A DNA stretch of 63,097 nucleotides, the filler included, from Babesia bigemina (taxonomy: Eukaryota): assembly GCF_000981445.1 (NCBI RefSeq). It is 17 parts of 17 records of this genome, joined end to end, with 100 filler letters (N's around TTAATTAATTAA, not from the genome) between each part and the next. Parts side by side here need not be neighbours in the genome. Positions count along the whole stretch, not along the records: positions 32,445 to 36,342 come from NW_012237081.1; 16 more parts are not named here. One strand, written 5' to 3'. How positions within the stretch are numbered: position 1 is the stretch's first letter; each line of letters starts with the position of its first letter. This document shows, piece after piece, positions 16,571 through 50,469 of the stretch. The notes under the pieces are model-generated. The model did not search any database, was not told where the DNA came from, and was given only the letters and a program-made list of their open reading frames with translations. The position numbers and the translations under genes are program-made.

Positions 16571-16699
16571 CTTCCCATATATCTTGAGGGCTCGGNNNNN
16601 NNNNNNNNNNNNNNNNNNNNNNNNNNNNNNNNNNNNNNNTTAATTAATTAANNNNNNNNNNNNNNNNNNNNNNNNNNNNNNNNNNNNNNNNNNNNACGA

Positions 16700-28655: not shown

Positions 28656-29376
28656 CCTTACCAATACAGTCATGTATTTTGCTAACTACACTATTAATAT
28701 TAGTTGAAGTTATGTAATTATCATAAGTTGTCACTTCATTTTCGTTTTTCACCGCACCAAGCACTCCACTCAAAAATCCCATCACCCCGTCACACAGCCT
28801 ATCCAAGTCGGAGTACACTATCCCAGTGCCATCGTAGCCTTTGGAAGCAGAGTTGAAGCCGAGGAAGGTTTCGAGGCCGTCACATAAATTATCTAAGAGA
28901 TTTTTTGGGTTATTATCAGAAGTTTTAAGTTTCTCATAATTTTCACAAAGCTTCTCCACTTTCTCCAAAGCCTGCAACTTGGAGTGCAATTTGTCTGACT
29001 CAGCAGAGGGAGAGGGGGAAGAAGGAGAGTTAATTACAGAAGGTTTAAGCTTCTTCATTGTCTCTTCAGTAAGCTTAATTTCAGTGGTAATTTTACTTTT
29101 TAGCTCACTAATTTTTCCGGTGTCATCAGCCTGGCCAGCAGACTTGACAGACTCAGAAAGGTTAGTAACAAGAGAAGAGTAAAGATGTTTAAGCTCTTCA
29201 TTACTGTTAATTTTAGCGATAATAGCATTCACAACGGCTTTCTTAACACTCTCACTTTGACCAACAAATCCGCCAAGCTGCCCAGCCAATTCACCAAGTT
29301 GAATACGGCTATCATTGATACCATTCAACTGCTTTTTCCTGGCATCCTCAGTAAGAGAATGGTCACCATCAACAAG
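28656..29376 (-). pseudogene. ves1: ves1 5' part, out of frame with a duplicated leader
   Basis: Frame opens after TAA 29377-29379 and carries IQLGELAGQLGGFVG and YSDLDRLCDGVMGFL. Leader ATGs at 29538 and 29402 both terminate early. Confidence 0.75.
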
Positions 29377-29566
29377 TTATTATAATGATTTATGGAGGTC
29401 ATAGCGTTAATAAGACGAAGTAATTCGAGAGATTTGGACTTAGGGTGAACATGATGGGACATGGCAGTGGCAAGAGGTGGAAGAAGGGAAGTGAAGGGTG
29501 ACAAGGCACAAGTTATTGCTATGGTTAACAGAGGTCATAGCGGTAATAAGACGAGGTGATTCAAGG

Positions 29567-30235
29567 GATGTGGAGTGGATAAAGGGGCGATGTAGAGTGG
29601 GTAAAGGGGCGATGTGGAGTGGGTTAGGGAGCGATGTAGAGTGGGTTAAAGGGCGATGTAGAGTGGATAATAATCACCACTTAGCTCACCATGTCATCGC
29701 TGCCGTGACCATGTCATCGCTGCCGTGTTGATGTCATCGCTGCCGTGACCATGTCATCGCTGCCGTAACCATGTCATCGCTGCCGTAACCATGTCATCGC
29801 TGCCGTGACCAAGACATCGCTGCCGTGACCAAGACATCGCTGCCGTAAGCATGTCATCGCTGCCGTGACCATGTCATCGCTGCCGTAACCATGTCATCGC
29901 TGCCGTGACCATGTCATCGCTGCCGTGACCATGTCATCGCTGCCGTAACCATGTCATCGCTGCCGTGACCAAGACATCGCTGCCGTAAGCATGTCATCGC
30001 TGCCGTGACCAAGACATCGCTGCCGTGACCATGTCATTGCTGCCGTGACCATGTCATCGCTGCTGTGACCATGTCATCGCTGCTGTGACCATCAACTTGG
30101 TCAGGTGCTTGGTCACCACTTTGGTCATGGCATTGGTCAGCACCTTGGTCAACACTTTGGTCAGCACCTTGGTCAGCACTTAGGTCAGTGTCTTGGTCAG
30201 CACTTAGGTCAGTGTCTTGGTCAGTTACTAAGTCA
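29567..30235 (-). repeat. Repeat cassette: short 22-bp array (29567-29667), 20-bp array (29688-30092), 12-bp array (30098-30235)
   Basis: Same units and order as the other cassettes. Confidence 0.93.
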
Positions 30236-32444: not shown

Positions 32445-33692
32445 CAATGTCCTAAGCAAGAATGCCACCAAAGGCCCGGCCAAAGTGGCAACCAAAGGAA
32501 TGAGCATTTCCCCAATTGCGGCGTCAAGTCGCCACTGCAATCGTTCTTGGAGGACGGTTTGAAAGGCCACCTGCCGCATTCGGTGTCAGCTAGGGGATCC
32601 AGTCTGTCATGTGGCACGTGTGGTAGCACACTTGGTATGCCGTGCAGAACGCCAATGGGCTTCGCTGACATCAGTGCCATTGCGTCGCATACGATGATGG
32701 GCCGGAATATATGCGAGGTGCTTTACTATTTCTGTGGGAGTGCAAAATCTCCTCTTACTAAACTGTGCGGTTACTTGAACTGCCTTCTGCCTAGTGCGCC
32801 GAAAACGCTGGCGGACATGTTCAGCTTCTACTATCATCTCACCGATCGCTGGGGTATGCATGGTCAAGAGCATAAGAAAGATGCATTTGACGAGCAAGTT
32901 AAAGCTGCCAATTTCGGACGTCAGTATACTGCGTTGAACGTCTACCACTTATTTACCCCTAGTCACTCAGCATTGAAGAAAGGCCACTCCGATGGCAGCC
33001 TGGGCAGTCTCGTATGCTTATCACGGGACGCCGTCGTATGCGGTCCTTATCTGCGGCCCATCAGTCACGCCATCTACGAGACGTTCTCGTCAAAACACGC
33101 CGATAAGTATTTGTCGTGGATCGTTTACCTGACGGCATCGTTCTACGATCTGCTTAAGAAATTGTATGATGAGTGCAATTCCAAATGCGGTTCCAGGGGA
33201 TCGAATTGCCACGTGAAAGCGTGCGTCAAGGAGTGTCCTACTACATCCAAACAAGATCCGCCACGATATCACGATACCAAATGCAAATCCATTGTAAGCT
33301 GCAATGCTACGCTGCCAACATTGGCAAAATACGGATTCGTTTTCGGCAACCCAGAAAAGCTAGACGGAAGTGAACGATCGCAAACGAAACGCACGTGCAG
33401 AGATCTCTGTACAGTATTTGCGGAGGCATTTGAGGAAGACTCACATCTTGTGAAGTTTTTCAAAGCCATTGATAATTTCATATTCACCATCAGAGAGCCG
33501 TTTATATGGCTCAACGTCGCACTCTGGCTCCTCTCTTTCCTCTACCTCACCCACATCATGGTCATCCGCCTCGACCTGCTCCACATCAAATCGCACTTAC
33601 ATAGTCCCTCATCACATCGCATCGCTGCTCAATCACTACTCGCTGCCGCACGTGTTAACAAACTTAACAGAGTGTTTTACCTGCAACCATAA
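32445..33692 (+). CDS. ves1: ves1 C-terminal fragment, type-B tail, 5'-partial
   Basis: Frame open from the gap. KSPLQSFLEDGL, CRTPMGF, TM helix, NKLNRVFYLQP. Confidence 0.9.
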   Translation, partial: QCPKQECHQRPGQSGNQRNEHFPNCGVKSPLQSFLEDGLKGHLPHSVSARGSSLSCGTCGSTLGMPCRTPMGFADISAIASHTMMGRNICEVLYYFCGSAKSPLTKLCGYLNCLLPSAPKTLADMFSFYYHLTDRWGMHGQEHKKDAFDEQVKAANFGRQYTALNVYHLFTPSHSALKKGHSDGSLGSLVCLSRDAVVCGPYLRPISHAIYETFSSKHADKYLSWIVYLTASFYDLLKKLYDECNSKCGSRGSNCHVKACVKECPTTSKQDPPRYHDTKCKSIVSCNATLPTLAKYGFVFGNPEKLDGSERSQTKRTCRDLCTVFAEAFEEDSHLVKFFKAIDNFIFTIREPFIWLNVALWLLSFLYLTHIMVIRLDLLHIKSHLHSPSSHRIAAQSLLAAARVNKLNRVFYLQP

Positions 33693-33845
33693 TCGTACTC
33701 ACGTGTTTACTACCTACACTCACCTAGCATATCACCTACTCACCTAACTTATGAATTGTGCTTTAAGCTGTTGCATCACTCATTCATCGTTGTATGTTGT
33801 TGTGTAGTAGTTAACTAAAGTGATGATCAACCACCTGACCTAGTA

Positions 33846-35692
33846 GCTGACCAATGCCATGACCAATGTGCTGACCAATGCCACGACCAGAGTGCTGACC
33901 AATGCCATGACCAATGTGCTGACCAATGCCATGACCAATGTGCTGACCAAGATGCTGACCAGAGTGCTGACCAAGGTGCTGACCAAGGTGCTGACCAATG
34001 CCATGACCAACGTGCTGACCAACGTGCTGACCAATGCCATGACCAAAATGCTGCCCAAAGTGCTGCCCAATGTGGTGACCAATGCCATGACCAAAGTGGT
34101 GACCAATGTGCTGACCAACCACCTGACCAATGCCACGACCAAAGTGGTGACCAATGCCATGACCAGAGTGGTGACCAATGTGCTGACCAAGGTGGTGACC
34201 AAGTTGATGGGCACGGCAGCGATGACATGGGCACGGCAGCGATGACATGGTCACAAGTGGTGTTTATTATCCACTCTACATCGCCCGTTTATCCACTCAA
34301 CATCGCTCCCTAATCCACTCCACATCGCCCCTTTATCCACTCTACATCGCCCTTTAACCACTCTACATCGCTCCCTAACCCACTCTACATCGCCCCTTAA
34401 CCCACTCTACATCGCTCCCTAACCCACTCTACATCGCCCCTTAACCCACTCTACATCGCCCCTTAATCCACTCCACATCGCTCCTCTACCCACTCTACAT
34501 CGCCCCTTTACCCACTCTACATCGCCCCTTTACCCACTCTACATCGCCCCTTTATCCACTCTACATGGCCCCTTAACCCACTCTACATCGCTCCCTTAAC
34601 CACTCTACATCGCCCCTTTATCCACTCTACATCGCCCCTAACCCACTCCACATCGCCCCTCTATCCACTCTACATCGCCCCTTAACCCACTCTACATCGC
34701 CCCTTTATCCACTCTACATCGCTCCCTAACCCACTCTACATCGCTCCTTAACCCACTCTACATCGCCCCTTAACCCACTCTACATCGCCCCTTAACCCAC
34801 TCTACATCGCCCCTTAACCCACTCTACATCGCCCCTTTATCCACTCTACATCGCCCCTTAACCCACTCTACATCGCTCTTTAACCCACTCTTCATCGCCC
34901 CTTAACCCACTCTACATCGCTCCCTTATCCACTCTACATCGCTCCCTTATCCACTCTTCATCGCCCCTTAACCCACTCTACATCGCTCCCTTATCCACTC
35001 TACATCGCTCCCTTATCCACTCTACATCGCCCCTTAATCCACTCTACATCGCCCCTTAACCTACTCCACATCGCCCCTTTATCCACTCCACATCGCTCCT
35101 TTATCCACTCTACATCGCTCCCTAACCCACTCTACATCGCCCCTTTACCCACTCCACATCGCCCCTTTACCCACTCCACATCGCCCCTTAACTCACTCTA
35201 CATCGCTCCCTAACCCACTCTACATCGCCCCTTTACCCACTCTACATCGCTCCTTTACCCACTCCACATCGCCCCTTAACCCACTCCACATCGCTCCCTA
35301 ACCCACTCTACATCGCCCCTTATCCACTCCACATCGCTCCCTAACCCACCTTACATCGCTCCTTAACCCACCTTACATCGCTCCTTTACCCACTCTACAT
35401 CGCTCCCTTATCCACCTCACATCGCCCCTTAACCCACTCCACTCTACATCGCTCCCTAACCCACTCTACATCGCTCCTTAACCCACTCTACATCGCCCCT
35501 TTATCCACTCCACATCGCTCCCTAATCCACTCCACATCGCCCCTTAACCCACTCTACATCGCTCCCTAATCCACTCCACATCGCTCCCTAACCCACCCTA
35601 CATCGCTCCCTAACCCACTCTACATCGCCCCTTTACCCACTCCACATCGCCCCTTTATCCACTCTACATCGCCCCTTAACCCACTCTACATC
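33846..35692 (+). repeat. Repeat cassette: 12-bp (33846-34203), 20-bp (34207-34254), 22-bp (34269-35692)
   Basis: Same units and order. Confidence 0.95.
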
Positions 35693-35718
35693 CCTAATCA
35701 CCTTCCCATAATACCGCT

Positions 35719-35916
35719 ATGACCTTCATTAACCATCCTAATAACTTGTGCCTTGTCACCCTTCACTTCCCTTCTTCCACCTCTTGCCACTGCCATGTCC
35801 CATCATGTTCACCTTAACTCCAAATCTCTCGAATTACTTCGCCTTATTAACGCTATGACCTCTTTAAACCATTATAATAACTTGTTGATACTGACCATTT
35901 TCTTACTGACGATGCT
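35719..35916 (+). pseudogene. ves1: Duplicated ves1 leader, interrupted after ...actgacgatgc
   Basis: Matches the 29340-29538 region (reverse complement) up to ~35915, then similarity ends. Confidence 0.7.
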
Positions 35917-36330
35917 AACGTAATTAAATTAAGTTATCTCATCTTATAGTGTGCTATGTGGCTACGTGCCTAGGGCCGGTTTTCGTGTTTGCGGGGCTAA
36001 CGCCTCACGCTGAAACCGGTTGCGGGATCCACGCCGGTCCATTGCCGGACGTCACTGGTGCCATCCATGCGGGCATCCATCCAGTTTGGGCTTGAGGGTC
36101 TTCTACGGAATCGTAGTCTTCTTTCGGCTTCATATCCCTCATCACTATTTTATGTGTTTCTTGGATCACTACCCTTTGTATGTGGGCTTCCATGCGATCC
36201 GATATGCCCAGGTCCCGTCTATACTTGCTGTGTTCTTTCGTCACTATTCCCTCCCACGTCATAACGTAGGGGATAACCCTGATCTTGGTGTGCTGGTTAA
36301 ACTGTCGCGCCTTGAGGTCCTCAATAAACG
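35917..36330 (-). mobile_element. Putative 3' end of an RLE-type non-LTR retrotransposon (ORF stop at 36005-36007)
   Basis: Minus frame is open from the gap: FIEDLKARQFNQHTKIRVIPYVMTWEGIVTKEHSKYRRDLGISDRMEAHIQRVVIQET. From recall, this resembles the IPYVMTWDG.VTK.H..Y...L.I....EAYIQ..V segment ending restriction-like endonuclease domains. Confidence 0.6.
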
Positions 36331-36442
36331 AATCTCTGATCTNNNNNNNNNNNNNNNNNNNNNNNNNNNNNNNNNNNNNNNNNNNNTTAATTAATTAANN
36401 NNNNNNNNNNNNNNNNNNNNNNNNNNNNNNNNNNNNNNNNNN

Positions 36443-36764
36443 TACACATCTACGGATTGGCAACGCTACGCCTCTGTCTGTCGCCCCCTACCCATTTAGG
36501 TACAAGGTGTTCGACAGTGCTCGGCTTTTGACGGAGCCGATAATTTCCATTTCGCTTGACATTTTGCGGTCGTCTACTTTCTCAGGTAGACAGACCCGGC
36601 TAGTGGAACGGAAAGTCTATGCGTGGCGCGTCCACTCGCGACGTTTTGTTGGTTGGATCGGTAATAGTCGCTGGAGCTTACACCCGCGATTGATGCCGAG
36701 TATTCAGCGAAAAGGAGTGGGTAGCGGCTATCTCGTATGTTTATTCTTGTTAATGTAGTACCGT
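36443..36764. repeat. 322-bp inverted repeat, left arm (right arm 38109-38430)
   Basis: tacacatctacggattggc...gtagtaccgt is the reverse complement of acggtactac...gtagatgtgta. The same 83-aa ORF is called on both strands. Confidence 0.95.
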
Positions 36765-38299
36765 TTGATGCGCGCAATGAAGACCAGTGCAATGTTGTGG
36801 AACTAAAACAGGTTACGAGGTATTCATCTAAGGCCTCCGAGTATGCTAACAGCACAAAGCTGCATGTACCATCGATGCTTAATTTACAGGCTTTGCCGAG
36901 GCGCGATTTGGACGACGCATTCTCGATGGATGATGCCAAAACTTCTGCCTCTATCTCGGACACAGCCAGCCCATTCGGCACCGAGTGCGACAAAATGAAC
37001 TGGAACAAGAAGAAAAACGGAGAGTCGCTAGTGGTGCCTACTGCCTTCTCCACGTTTAGACGTAGTAGATGTGATCATTTCCCTGGATATGCTCCCAGCA
37101 GCACGCTGCAGTTTGCCGATGAGCCCTTCTTCACGGGGTACAATGGCTCCTTTGCCTCTGATGAGGTTTACGACATTTCGGAAACGAATTTCGATTTCAC
37201 CACGGTAACTGGCTATGGCATGGATGATGACTACACGGACAACTACGTGTCCATCATAGACATGGTCTGTGGCGTAGCTGATGAGTCGGAGGAACGCGCG
37301 ATTGGCATGCGCCGCGGCGTGCTTGTTGAGGCGCCCAAGGAGCTAGAGCCAAAGGCCTCCGAGTATGCTAACAGCACAAAGCTGCATGTACCATCGATGC
37401 TTAATTTACAGGCTTTGCCGAGGCGCGATTTGGACGACGCATTCTCGATGGATGATGCCAAAACTTCTGCCTCTATCTCGGACACAGCCAGCCCATTCGG
37501 CACCGAGTGCGACAAAATGAACTGGAACAAGAAGAAAAACGGAGAGTCGCTAGTGGTGCCTACTGCCTTCTCCACGTTTAAACGTAGTAGATGTGATCAT
37601 TTCCCTGGATATGCTCCCAGCAGCACGCTGCAGTTTGCCGATGAGCCCTTCTTCACGGGGTACAATGGCTCCTTTGCCTCTGATGAGGTTTACGACATTT
37701 CGGAAACGAATTTCGATTTCGCCACGGTAACTGGCTATGGCATGGATGATGACTACACGGACAACTACGTGTCCATCATAGACATGGTCTGTGGCGTAGC
37801 TGATGAGTCGGAGGAACGCGCGATTGGCATGCGCCGCGACGTGCTTGTTGAGGCGCCCAAGGAGCTAGAGCCCTTCCTGCTTCATTGTTACGCAACGTGC
37901 GCCATTGTATTCATCGTTCTTAGACGAGGAAAGCGGCTCCAGTACAGCGCCGCTGCCTACACGGCGGCATTGGGTAAGTCCAAGAGTACTGTTGCCCTTC
38001 ATGTTGTACCCAGAAACTGCATTAACAAGCAACCAATCAGCAAGATTCTCGACAATAACTATATATACGCTACCGTTATAAACATTAAATCGAAAATGGA
38101 CTACATTGACGGTACTACATTAACAAGAATAAACATACGAGATAGCCGCTACCCACTCCTTTTCGCTGAATACTCGGCATCAATCGCGGGTGTAAGCTCC
38201 AGCGACTATTACCGATCCAACCAACAAAACGTCGCGAGTGGACGCGCCACGCATAGACTTTCCGTTCCACTAGCCGGGTCTGTCTACCTGAGAAAGTAG
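36737..38299 (+). CDS. Hypothetical acidic protein with an in-frame 174-aa duplication
   Basis: 520-codon ORF, no recognised domain. Both ends overlap the inverted repeat arms, so the gene model is uncertain. Confidence 0.4.
   Translation: MFILVNVVPFDARNEDQCNVVELKQVTRYSSKASEYANSTKLHVPSMLNLQALPRRDLDDAFSMDDAKTSASISDTASPFGTECDKMNWNKKKNGESLVVPTAFSTFRRSRCDHFPGYAPSSTLQFADEPFFTGYNGSFASDEVYDISETNFDFTTVTGYGMDDDYTDNYVSIIDMVCGVADESEERAIGMRRGVLVEAPKELEPKASEYANSTKLHVPSMLNLQALPRRDLDDAFSMDDAKTSASISDTASPFGTECDKMNWNKKKNGESLVVPTAFSTFKRSRCDHFPGYAPSSTLQFADEPFFTGYNGSFASDEVYDISETNFDFATVTGYGMDDDYTDNYVSIIDMVCGVADESEERAIGMRRDVLVEAPKELEPFLLHCYATCAIVFIVLRRGKRLQYSAAAYTAALGKSKSTVALHVVPRNCINKQPISKILDNNYIYATVINIKSKMDYIDGTTLTRINIRDSRYPLLFAEYSASIAGVSSSDYYRSNQQNVASGRATHRLSVPLAGSVYLRK
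36830..37872 (+). repeat. 522-bp tandem duplication (2 copies)
   Basis: aaggcctccgagtatgct at 36830 and 37352. Three amino-acid differences (R/K, T/A, G/D). Confidence 0.95.
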
Positions 38300-38430
38300 A
38301 CGACCGCAAAATGTCAAGCGAAATGGAAATTATCGGCTCCGTCAAAAGCCGAGCACTGTCGAACACCTTGTACCTAAATGGGTAGGGGGCGACAGACAGA
38401 GGCGTAGCGTTGCCAATCCGTAGATGTGTA
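38109..38430. repeat. 322-bp inverted repeat, right arm
   Basis: Reverse complement of 36443-36764. Confidence 0.95.
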
Positions 38431-38535
38431 GAGGTNNNNNNNNNNNNNNNNNNNNNNNNNNNNNNNNNNNNNNNNNNNNTTAATTAATTAANNNNNNNNN
38501 NNNNNNNNNNNNNNNNNNNNNNNNNNNNNNNNNNN

Positions 38536-49037: not shown

Positions 49038-50469
49038 ATTCAGTTCAGTTCAGTTGCTCAGTCGTGTCCGACTCTTTGTGACCCCATGAATTGCAGCACG
49101 CCAGGCCTCCCTGTCCATCATCAACTCCCGAAATTTACTCAAACTCACGTCCATCGAGTCAGTGATGCCATCCAGCCATCTCATCCTCTGTCATTCCCTT
49201 CTCCTCCTGCCCCAAATCCCTCCCAACATCAGGGTTTTTTCCAATGAGTCAACACTTCACATGAGGTGGCCAAAGTACTGGAGCTTCAGCTTCAGCATCA
49301 GTCCTTCCAATGAACAACCAGGTCTGATCTCCTTTAGTATGGACTGGTTGGATCTCCTTGCAGTCCAAGGGACTCTCAAGAGTCTTCTCCAGCACCACAG
49401 TTCAAAAGCATCAATTCTTCGGTGCTCAGCTTTCTTTATAGTCCAACTCTCACATCCATACATGACCACTGGAAAAACCATAGCCTTGACTAGACGGACC
49501 TTTGTTGGCAAAGTAATGTCTCTGCTTTTTAATATGCTATCTAGGTTGGTCATAACTTTCCTTCCAAGGAGTAAGCGTCTTTTAATTTCATGGCTGCAGT
49601 CACCATCTGCAGTGATTTTGGAGCCCCCAAAAATAAAGTCTGACACTGTTTCCACTGTTTCCCCATCTATTTGCCATGAAGTGATGGGACCAGATGCCAT
49701 GATCTTAGTTTTCTGAATGTTGAGCTTTAAGCCAACTTTTTCACTCTCCTCTTTCACTTTCATCAAGAGGCTCTTTAGTTCCTCTTCACTTTCTGCCATA
49801 AGGGTGGTGTCATCTGCATATCTGAGGTTATTGATATTTCTCCCGGCAATCTTGATTCCAGCTTGTGCTTCATCCAGCCCAGCATTTCTCATGATGTACT
49901 CTGCATATAAGTTAAATAAGCAGGGTGACAATATACAGCCTTGACGTACTCCTTTTCCTATTTGGAACCAGTCTGTTGTTCCATGTCCAGTTCTAACTGT
50001 TGCTTCCTGACCTGCATACAGATTTCTCAAGAGGCAGGTCAGGTGGTCTGGTATTCCCATCTCTTTCAGAATTTTCCACAGTTTATTGTGATCCACACAG
50101 TCAAAGGCTTTGGCATAGTCAATAAAGCAGAAATAGATGTTTTTCTGGAACTCTCTTGCTTTTTCCATGATCCAGCGGATGTTGGCAATTTGATCTCTGG
50201 TTCCTCTGCCTTTTCTAAAACCAGCTTGAACATCTGGAAGTTCATGGTTCACGTATTGCTGAAGCCTGGCTTGGAGAATTTTGAGCATTACTTTACTAGC
50301 ATGTGAGATGAGTGCAATTGTGCGGTAGTTTGAGCATTCTTTGGCATTGCCTTTCTTTGGGATTGGAATGAAAACTGACCTTTTCCAGTCCTGTGGCCAC
50401 TGCTGAGTTTTCCAAATTTGCTGGCATATTGAGTGCAGCACTTTCACAGCATCATCTTTCAGGATTTGA
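49038..50469 (-). mobile_element. 5'-truncated BovB LINE with reverse transcriptase domain (49257-50447); host DNA
   Basis: NYRTIALISHASK, QAGFRKGRGT, GVRQGCILSP, LRYADD motifs. (AACTG)n 3' tail at ~49038. Confidence 0.95.

What the first reader, a model, noticed from the sequence alone, without database searches (positions are those of the whole stretch)
35917..36330. Putative RLE-type non-LTR retrotransposon interrupting a ves1 leader
Seen: the duplicated leader matches its sibling at 29340-29538 until ...actgacgatgc (~35915), then switches to unrelated DNA. On the minus strand this is an ORF end (RVIPYVMTWEGIVTKEHSKYRRDLGISDRMEAHIQRVV...*), a ~85-nt 3' UTR and a TTAATTTAATTA end at the junction. 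Recall: the peptide resembles the C-terminus of the restriction-like endonuclease of R4/Dong-like elements, which are often target-site specific. It is unlike the bovine BovB and L1 in this window. Piroplasm genomes are generally regarded as poor in retrotransposons. Inference: a parasite-resident element, possibly targeting ves1 leaders.
Basis: partly seen in the sequence, partly recalled or inferred. Interest (0 to 1): 0.8.

Follow-up and report, generated by a model that had tools for sequence, protein, structure and literature searches.

The report
Retrotransposon nesting in Babesia antigen loci
This is the tail end of a jumping gene of the cattle parasite Babesia bigemina, likely inserted here into a 5'-truncated surface-antigen (ves1b) gene copy; intact, near-identical copies exist, and in two Babesia species the copies checked sit almost only beside such antigen genes, likely because insertions are tolerated there.

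Summary
Window 36005-36327 (-) encodes 106 residues identical to the C-terminus of a 1347-aa B. bigemina protein. That protein has a reverse transcriptase, a CCHC knuckle and a restriction-like endonuclease; the fold of its C-terminal domain matches R2 retrotransposons (Z 15). Eight intact gene records differ by 0-4 residues, so the family is likely young. It is parasite-resident: relatives occur in B. ovata and B. caballi, and none of the listed hits is bovine. The junction lies at the element's natural 3' end, which argues against a chimera, though no independent contig bridges it.

Two corrections. The site is degenerate ves1b coding sequence in a 5'-truncated copy, not a leader. Other copies have different flanks, so there is no single target sequence.

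The regional association is strong. 13 of 14 chromosomal B. bigemina loci and 20 of 22 B. caballi loci lie within two genes of a ves gene. Selection filtering is my best explanation; true targeting is the main rival.

LINE-like elements in B. bigemina were already reported (PMC9141347). I found no report of the architecture, the ves association, or the nesting among microsporidian elements.

The parts
36005..36327 (-). 3' end of the retrotransposon ORF: the post-catalytic part of the restriction-like endonuclease plus C-terminal tail, ending in TGA
   Evidence: 106 aa identical to 7 of 13 B. bigemina copies compared, including intact 1347-aa ones; tblastn to P0003 residues 1239-1347; a 4608-nt public contig matches 35924-36327 with 0 differences
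35922..36004 (-). 3' UTR (81-83 nt), no stable predicted fold
   Evidence: fold z = -0.55
35922..35932 (-). AT-rich pentamer-repeat tail at the element's natural 3' end; its length varies between copies
   Evidence: public contigs begin or diverge at 35924; one other copy has extra repeat units
35917..35921 (.). five junction bases not assignable to target or element
   Evidence: whether they are target-derived or untemplated is not known
35693..35916 (+). conserved spacer found 5' of truncated ves1b copies, ending in degenerate ves1b coding sequence (H.LT.DA at 35896-35916): the insertion target
34271..35692 (+). 22-bp C-rich minisatellite (64.5 copies) upstream of ves1b copies; one public contig joins such an array to the element's 3' end (another copy)
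   Evidence: joint 35677->35924 in run X1
33846..34202 (+). 12/72-bp tandem repeat between ves1b copies
32445..33692 (+). 3' coding end of the upstream ves1b gene
   Evidence: 38% identity over 421 columns to P0218 = CDR96508, labelled ves1b in PMC5660447 Table S2
36328..36342 (.). vector/adaptor-like remnant at the contig end; not part of the element
   Evidence: same word at 16698, 38538 and 51270, each near a piece end; the public contig continues differently from 36327
28657..29568 (-). uninterrupted sibling locus: the same spacer followed by a ves1b-type reading frame
   Evidence: the best 120 of 163 homologs are B. bigemina/B. ovata ves1b-type proteins or unnamed

Best explanation
The segment is the 3' end of a single-ORF non-LTR retrotransposon of Babesia bigemina (reverse transcriptase, CCHC knuckle, restriction-like endonuclease), likely inserted antisense by target-primed reverse transcription into a 5'-truncated ves1b copy, and its copies likely collect in ves islands because insertions elsewhere in this compact genome are purged. 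Shown: the domains and intact catalytic motifs; eight intact 1347-aa gene records differing by 0-4 residues; a junction at the natural 3' end; different flanks in other copies; adjacency to ves genes in two species. Inferred from the R2 paradigm: the endonuclease nicks DNA and the RT primes cDNA from the nick on the RNA's AT-rich 3' end. Also inferred: site choice is loose (perhaps short TTAA-like matches), the family moved recently, and selection in a haploid, 66%-coding genome leaves survivors mainly in redundant ves archives. Identity as an RLE retroelement is about 0.95 likely; the selection-filter step is the uncertain part.
For: Identity. Architecture: PF00078 at 640-881; CCHC 1119-1135, RHN 1146, NRPD 1200, IVEI 1216, KKQKY 1234, YIDD 818, and no N-terminal C2H2 finger. 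The family profile matches R2Tg from RT through RLE (E 2e-67) but L1 only over the RT region. The C-terminal domain model (pLDDT 87) has R2 chains as its top 7 Foldseek hits and VIA Z 15.2 (rmsd 2.8, 175 aligned; next unrelated row Z 8.9). Natural 3' end and varied flanks. B. bigemina: 10 of 10 chromosomal loci from the RT cluster and 3 of 4 additional 3' fragments lie within 2 accessions of a ves-cluster gene. With the complete ves1a-cluster list alone, 7 of 14 lie within 2 against a 6% background (p 7e-6). B. caballi: 20 of 22 loci against 20%. For tolerance: the target here lacks the canonical ves1b start (0 hits in the window); neighbours span ves1a, ves1b, ves1ba and ves2; the genome is 66.3% coding (PMC4066756 Table 1).
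Against: All four intact chromosomal copies (CDR94844, 96052, 96093, 96959) lie within 2 genes of a ves gene, which fits targeting as well as fast purging. Non-coding DNA between housekeeping genes exists, yet only 1 of 14 and 2 of 22 loci fall outside. Adjacency rests on accession or locus-tag order, not DNA. Loci in one ves island are not independent, so the p-values overstate the case. No listed public contig bridges this exact junction. No target-site duplication can be read because the 5' junction lies beyond the contig end. Activity is inferred from sequence youth only.
Confidence: 0.52

Rival explanations
1. True regional targeting: the protein is steered to ves islands, through its N-terminal helical (Myb-like) domain reading ves-associated repeats, through ves chromatin, or by using DNA breaks made during ves gene conversion.
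For: 13 of 14 and 20 of 22 loci lie beside ves genes in two species whose elements are only about 47% identical. Gene models fuse the element with ves sequence: P0030 carries VESA1_N, P0026 has ves1b-like flanks, CDR96979 is labelled ves1ba. One copy joins the ves-upstream minisatellite. Most RLE elements are target-specific for multicopy sequences (PMC4640811 passages). The N-terminal part gives Myb leads at 0.82 and 0.78 (leads only).
Against: The flanks differ and no shared target motif is evident. The ves families of the two species are divergent. Peptide motifs read from two flanks gave no exact match in 120 ves1b-type proteins.
Confidence: 0.33
2. Hitch-hiking: a few insertions were multiplied by the segmental duplication and gene conversion that shuffle ves loci, so the copy number reflects ves recombination rather than retrotransposition.
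For: ves1 genes move between loci often (PMC4066756 passages). Copies are near-identical, and many lie on unplaced contigs.
Against: Different flanks begin right at the 3' end. Neighbours belong to different ves subfamilies. Short 3'-only gene models resemble 5'-truncated retrocopies.
Confidence: 0.09
3. The family is real, but this junction is a chimeric clone or a mis-assembly.
For: It sits on a 3.9-kb contig that ends in vector-like bases, and no listed contig bridges it.
Against: The break falls within a few bases of the natural 3' end of a roughly 4.6-kb element. A random break would do so about 0.4% of the time (my estimate, 20/4600). The context matches that of the other copies.
Confidence: 0.05
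4. The element is cattle or tick DNA contaminating the assembly.
For: The window does hold bovine BovB RT sequence at 49602-50363 (BovB identity recalled).
Against: Copies lie on 2.5-3.5-Mb B. bigemina chromosomes among parasite genes. Babesia copies form one clade, 100/100, across three species from cattle and horse. No bovine hit is among the best 120 of 177 listed.
Confidence: 0.01

Closest known systems
LINE-like elements of Babesia and Theileria equi (Rodriguez & Makalowski 2022, PMC9141347; models Bova_19, Bdiv_22, Tequ_3)
   Same: Very likely the same family in B. bigemina (133,787 nt, 0.97% of the genome) and B. ovata; the Bova_19 model carries PF00078. I did not align the model sequences.
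   Different: In the parts I read (1-3 of 5, passages, supplement rows) it is called only LINE-like: no RLE, no intact copies, no insertion-site analysis, no ves association, no phylogeny against other eukaryotes. Whether the T. equi and B. divergens elements belong to this lineage was not tested.
RT-motif gene cluster 03 of B. caballi (141 genes) and module 12 of B. ovata/B. bigemina (37 genes) (PMC10463595; PMC5660447 Table S2)
   Same: Module 12 holds the same proteins. Cluster 03 is taken to be the B. caballi family; IDs were not mapped one by one.
   Different: They are treated as an expanded gene family; the word stems 'transpos' and 'retro(transpos)' occur 0 times in either main text.
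Dong/R4 clade non-LTR retrotransposons (Bombyx Dong, nematode R4, Entamoeba EhLINE)
   Same: One ORF with RT and a C-terminal RLE, no N-terminal zinc finger, and a possible divergent Myb (definition from PMC7998251 passages). The nearest animal-type relatives (about 25-31% identity) often end in TAA arrays (11 of 25). EhLINEs likewise lack targeted insertion (PMC1635306, search listing only).
   Different: It is separated from the TAA-tailed elements by a long, fully supported branch (0.9-1.07). It has no rDNA or (TAA)n target, and the tail is a short pentamer repeat.
R2 (R2Bm, R2Tg, PlaMe; solved structures)
   Same: RT-linker-CCHC-RLE fold; the TPRT mechanism is inferred from them.
   Different: 13-17% structural identity; no N-terminal C2H2 fingers; not in 28S rDNA.
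Microsporidian RT elements (Hamiltosporidium, Enteropsectra) and unnamed environmental relatives
   Same: Closest non-Babesia sequences, about 33-45% identity; Babesia nests among them.
   Different: They lack the long low-complexity N-terminus of the Babesia ORF. Their targets are unknown. Hits filed under Octopus, Polistes and a bacterial MAG may be contaminants (not tested).

Membership tests
RLE-encoding non-LTR retrotransposons | non-LTR RT domain with YxDD | tested here: met
   PF00078 E 5e-30 at 640-881; YIDD 818; best solved relatives are L1 and R2
RLE-encoding non-LTR retrotransposons | CCHC knuckle followed by a PD-(D/E)xK restriction-like endonuclease at the C-terminus | tested here: met
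   Motifs; PD present in 73-74 of 76 aligned rows; fold match to the R2 C-terminus, Z 15.2; top 7 Foldseek hits are R2
RLE-encoding non-LTR retrotransposons | single long ORF, no apurinic endonuclease | tested here: met
   1347-aa ORF with RT as the only Pfam hit; a 4608-nt public contig carries the 3' end; the profile matches L1 only over the RT region
RLE-encoding non-LTR retrotransposons | defined 3' end with a simple-repeat tail and varied flanks | tested here: met
RLE-encoding non-LTR retrotransposons | target-site duplication and 5' junction structure | not testable with these tools
   The 5' junction lies beyond the contig end, and no genome is held
RLE-encoding non-LTR retrotransposons | variably 5'-truncated copies | tested here: inconclusive
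   Short 3'-only gene models of 60-372 aa, seen as proteins only
R4/Dong clade | RT phylogeny grouping with named R4/Dong references against R2, NeSL, CRE and HERO | not testable with these tools
   No named reference sequences were available; the trees show only a divergent sister position to TAA-tailed elements
R4/Dong clade | no N-terminal zinc finger; divergent SANT/Myb domain | tested here: inconclusive
   No C2H2 pattern; helical bundle at model residues 59-139; Myb leads below 0.9
R4/Dong clade | insertion into rDNA or (TAA)n microsatellites | tested here: not met
   The target here is ves1b sequence; the other listed flanks are not TAA arrays
R2 clade | N-terminal C2H2 fingers and a 28S rDNA target | tested here: not met
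Bovine BovB (RTE) / L1 | sequence identity to host elements | tested here: not met
   Only 22% identity to the BovB-type RT in this window; no bovine hit among those listed

The most novel reading that the evidence does not exclude
A still-active RLE retrotransposon, acquired horizontally from a microsporidian-type donor by the ancestor of B. bigemina, B. ovata and B. caballi, has evolved to target the variant-antigen (ves) islands. It thereby supplies breaks, portable homology and reverse transcriptase to the antigenic-variation system, including the RT needed for the proposed retro-origin of intron-poor ves genes.
Probability: 0.15. Interest if true: 0.88.

Novelty: new member of a known kind. 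Interest (0 to 1): 0.6.

Why it matters
Apicomplexan transposable elements are few, and the reported ones are mostly fragments. An intact, near-identical multicopy RLE element is therefore a candidate for current mobility in a piroplasm. Its concentration at ves islands in two species links it to the loci that drive antigenic variation, whether as passenger or participant. It offers an RT source for the hypothesis that ves1-alpha arose by reverse transcription (PMC4066756). B. bovis itself lacks such elements today (PMC9141347), so that would require an ancestral copy. The nesting among microsporidian elements suggests a horizontal transfer between unrelated intracellular parasites. In practice, these 'RT genes' should be annotated and masked as a transposon, and their insertion polymorphisms could serve as strain markers.

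Tried and rejected
No genome is held for the window, so copies could not be tabulated at DNA level; gene-order tables from supplements were used instead.

Pfam on the window fragment gave only a sub-threshold Cas9_C hit. Pfam found no VESA family in the three window ves1b frames, so ves identity rests on homologs labelled in PMC5660447.

The 3' UTR shows no stable fold.

A metagenome scan with the single protein found no relative among 59 candidates. The alignment scan gave mostly distant relatives, with no rDNA in the 17 of 80 loci searched.

No RNA holder was listed for the stretch; this is no evidence on expression.

Two flanks were read as possible ves coding sequence, with no exact match in 120 proteins.

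B. ovata RT genes have RPKM of about 2-740, but multi-mapping limits this. Two RT-like B. bigemina genes are up 128- and 1931-fold in blood stages (PMC9806345). I could not map those IDs to this family and the assembly may hold bovine RT contigs, so they are not used as evidence.

PMC6537212 and PMC10975891 held nothing relevant. Four look-ups of earlier findings returned nothing. The VIA second look at the full-length model was not obtained.

Rejected readings: the TTAA end is the scaffolding linker (it differs from it and lies inside the contig); the 5' end is a natural truncation (it is a contig end).

Full report
WINDOW AND OBSERVATION. The window is 17 small contigs joined by N44-TTAATTAATTAA-N44 linkers; the finding lies in piece 32445-36342. 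That piece holds, in order: the 3' end of a ves1b gene (38% identity to CDR96508, labelled ves1b), tandem repeats including 64.5 copies of a 22-bp unit, a conserved spacer, and then the foreign DNA. The spacer matches its sibling at 29342-29538 at 181 of 197 bases and the next 75 bases at only 24. The minus-strand frame, TGA at 36005-36007, 81-83-nt UTR and AT-rich end are as described. The last 15 bases are a vector-like word seen near three other piece ends, so the element is cut by the assembly.

WHAT THE FOREIGN DNA IS. A search of longer proteins gave 4 hits among 40 candidates, all Babesia. The best long one, P0003 (B. bigemina, 1347 aa), has PF00078 at 640-881, YIDD, a CX2CX7HX4C knuckle, RHN, NRPD, IVEI and KKQKY, and no N-terminal C2H2 finger. 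The window's 106 residues are identical to 7 of 13 copies compared. Eight gene records encode an intact 1347-aa ORF as four distinct sequences differing by 1-4 residues; four of the records are on chromosomes. That implies recent spread (inference). A profile of 76 relatives matches R2Tg from RT to the C-terminus (E 2e-67) but L1 only over the RT region. The predicted C-terminal domain (pLDDT 87) has R2 chains as its first 7 Foldseek hits and VIA Z 15.2 and 14.4 against 8.9 for the next row. The 1165-aa model also ranks R2 first. The element is thus an RLE-type non-LTR retrotransposon. Relatives occur in B. ovata (75-81%) and B. caballi; no bovine protein is among the best 120 of 177 hits listed.

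THE JUNCTION. A 4608-nt contig of run X1 starts at 35924 and matches to 36327 without a difference; X1 may be this DNA's own source. Copies in runs X3 and X4 diverge into other flanks at 35924, and more distant copies in X2, X4 and X5 at 35928-35944. One copy has extra tail units, and one X1 contig joins the element end to the ves-upstream minisatellite. So the window's junction is at the natural 3' end, which a random chimera would rarely hit, and there is no single target sequence. Against: no listed contig bridges this junction, these tables were cut (74 and 10 loose ends not shown), and a target duplication cannot be read.

THE TARGET IS NOT A LEADER. The last target codons read H.LT.DA. 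This motif occurs in 10 of 120 ves1b-type homologs, and at residues 108-125 in the 7 that have the canonical start. The canonical start motif occurs nowhere in the window, and the spacer is fused to ves1b coding sequence at different depths in different copies. The target is therefore likely a 5'-truncated, silent copy (inference; an unrecognised long intron is not excluded).

ASSOCIATION WITH VES LOCI. I used accession order as gene order (an assumption). In B. bigemina the RT cluster has 11 chromosomal genes at 10 loci; 14 genes on unplaced contigs were left out. All 10 lie within 2 accessions of a gene in a ves cluster, and 9 of 10 within 3 of a gene labelled ves. Of 4 further 3' fragments, 3 do. 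With only the complete 80-gene ves1a cluster, 7 of 14 lie within 2 against a 6.1% background (p 7e-6). Restricted to ves-rich ranges it is 7 of 13 against 14% (p 8e-4). Two control families gave 0 of 21 and 3 of 17. A worst-case bound for 13 of 14 gives p 1e-6 to 5e-5. In B. caballi I tested the 31 of 141 RT-cluster genes for which the ves1c list was complete in the parts read. These form 22 loci, of which 20 lie within 2 IDs of a ves1c gene against 20%; control clusters gave 3 of 27 and 3 of 8. Loci within one island are not independent, but 12 of 21 islands carry an element. Fused gene models agree: P0030 has VESA1_N, P0026 has ves1b-like sequence, and CDR96979 is labelled ves1ba; 0 of 27 further B. 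ovata/B. caballi RT proteins had a VESA domain.

MECHANISM. By the R2 paradigm (established knowledge), the RLE would nick DNA and the RT would copy the RNA from its 3' end. I commit to loose site choice plus a selection filter (0.52), because the flanks vary, the neighbours span four ves subfamilies, the target here looks already silent, and the genome is 66% coding. True regional targeting is close behind (0.33), since even the four intact chromosomal copies sit by ves genes. Hitch-hiking (0.09), chimera (0.05) and contamination (0.01) follow.

RELATIVES AND ORIGIN. In three trees the Babesia elements form one clade nested with Hamiltosporidium, Polistes-filed and unnamed sequences (99/99 and 100/99). 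Enteropsectra, Octopus-filed and mite sequences lie outside, and animal-type elements lie across a long branch. Of 25 distant metagenome relatives examined, 11 end in TAA-type arrays, the Dong hallmark. A tree holding the four microsporidian rows together against Babesia and the outgroup is rejected (p-AU 0.008). However, that grouping was chosen after seeing the first tree, the model was LG+G4 without a mixture, rows were subsampled (47 and 21), the Babesia stem is long, and element paralogy or contaminated assemblies could give the same picture. Horizontal transfer from a microsporidian-type donor is a lead, about 0.4. I file the family as an RLE non-LTR element related to Dong/R4, not as a member of that clade: no named references were testable, and the rDNA/TAA target is not met.

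WHAT IS IN PRINT. PMC9141347 (parts 1-3 of 5, passages and supplement rows read) reports LINE-like elements in B. bigemina, B. ovata, B. divergens and T. equi, and none in B. bovis. PMC10463595 (passages, supplement parts 1-3 of 18) notes an RT-motif gene cluster. PMC5660447 (passages, supplement rows and parts 4 and 8 of 61 of file 2) lists the genes. PMC4066756 (passages) recalls the retro-origin hypothesis for ves1-alpha. PMC4202319, PMC4640811, PMC7998251, PMC9806345, PMC6537212 and PMC10975891 were seen as passages; PMC1635306 as a listing only. Ten library searches showed no paper on the RLE architecture, the ves association or the microsporidian affinity. Repbase, Dfam and subscription journals could not be searched, and unread supplement parts may bear on this. 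The BovB label for 49602-50363 is recalled, not from a call.

VERDICT. The family's existence is known at a cursory level. Its intactness, architecture and concentration at antigen loci appear undescribed. New member of a known kind; interest 0.6.

Noticed in passing
window 7615(+), 20839(+), 29538(-), 35719(+), 39890(-), 60233(+): These six ves1b 5' ends lack the canonical start. A C-rich minisatellite plus a conserved spacer is fused to ves1b coding sequence at three different depths. 23 of 120 ves1b-type database proteins are annotated from the spacer's ATG. This may be a silent, 5'-truncated donor archive, or an unrecognised long intron.
   Followed up: partly
window 16698, 36330, 38538, 51270: A vector/adaptor-like word at contig ends; related words start other pieces.
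   Followed up: partly
window 36443-38435: A 2-kb piece with a 524-codon frame containing a long internal direct repeat; its end repeats its start in reverse complement. It may be a mis-assembly; there was no Pfam hit.
   Followed up: no
window 49602-50363 (-): An open RT frame of host-retroelement type (BovB-like, recalled), 22% identical to the Babesia element; host DNA in the assembly.
   Followed up: partly
window 54968 onward: Telomere-like CCTAAA repeats start this piece.
   Followed up: no
protein P0266 (B. ovata GBE59174): A second, divergent B. ovata lineage of the element (47% to P0003), implying at least two families in that genome.
   Followed up: partly
proteins P0051, P0066, P0081, P0084, P0269: Relatives filed under a bacterial MAG, Octopus and Polistes group with microsporidian elements and may be parasite contamination of those assemblies.
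   Followed up: no
run X5 laid on window 35933-36033: A run guessed to be RNA holds deep contigs with a diverged copy of the element's 3' end and other flanks; not shown to be transcription.
   Followed up: no
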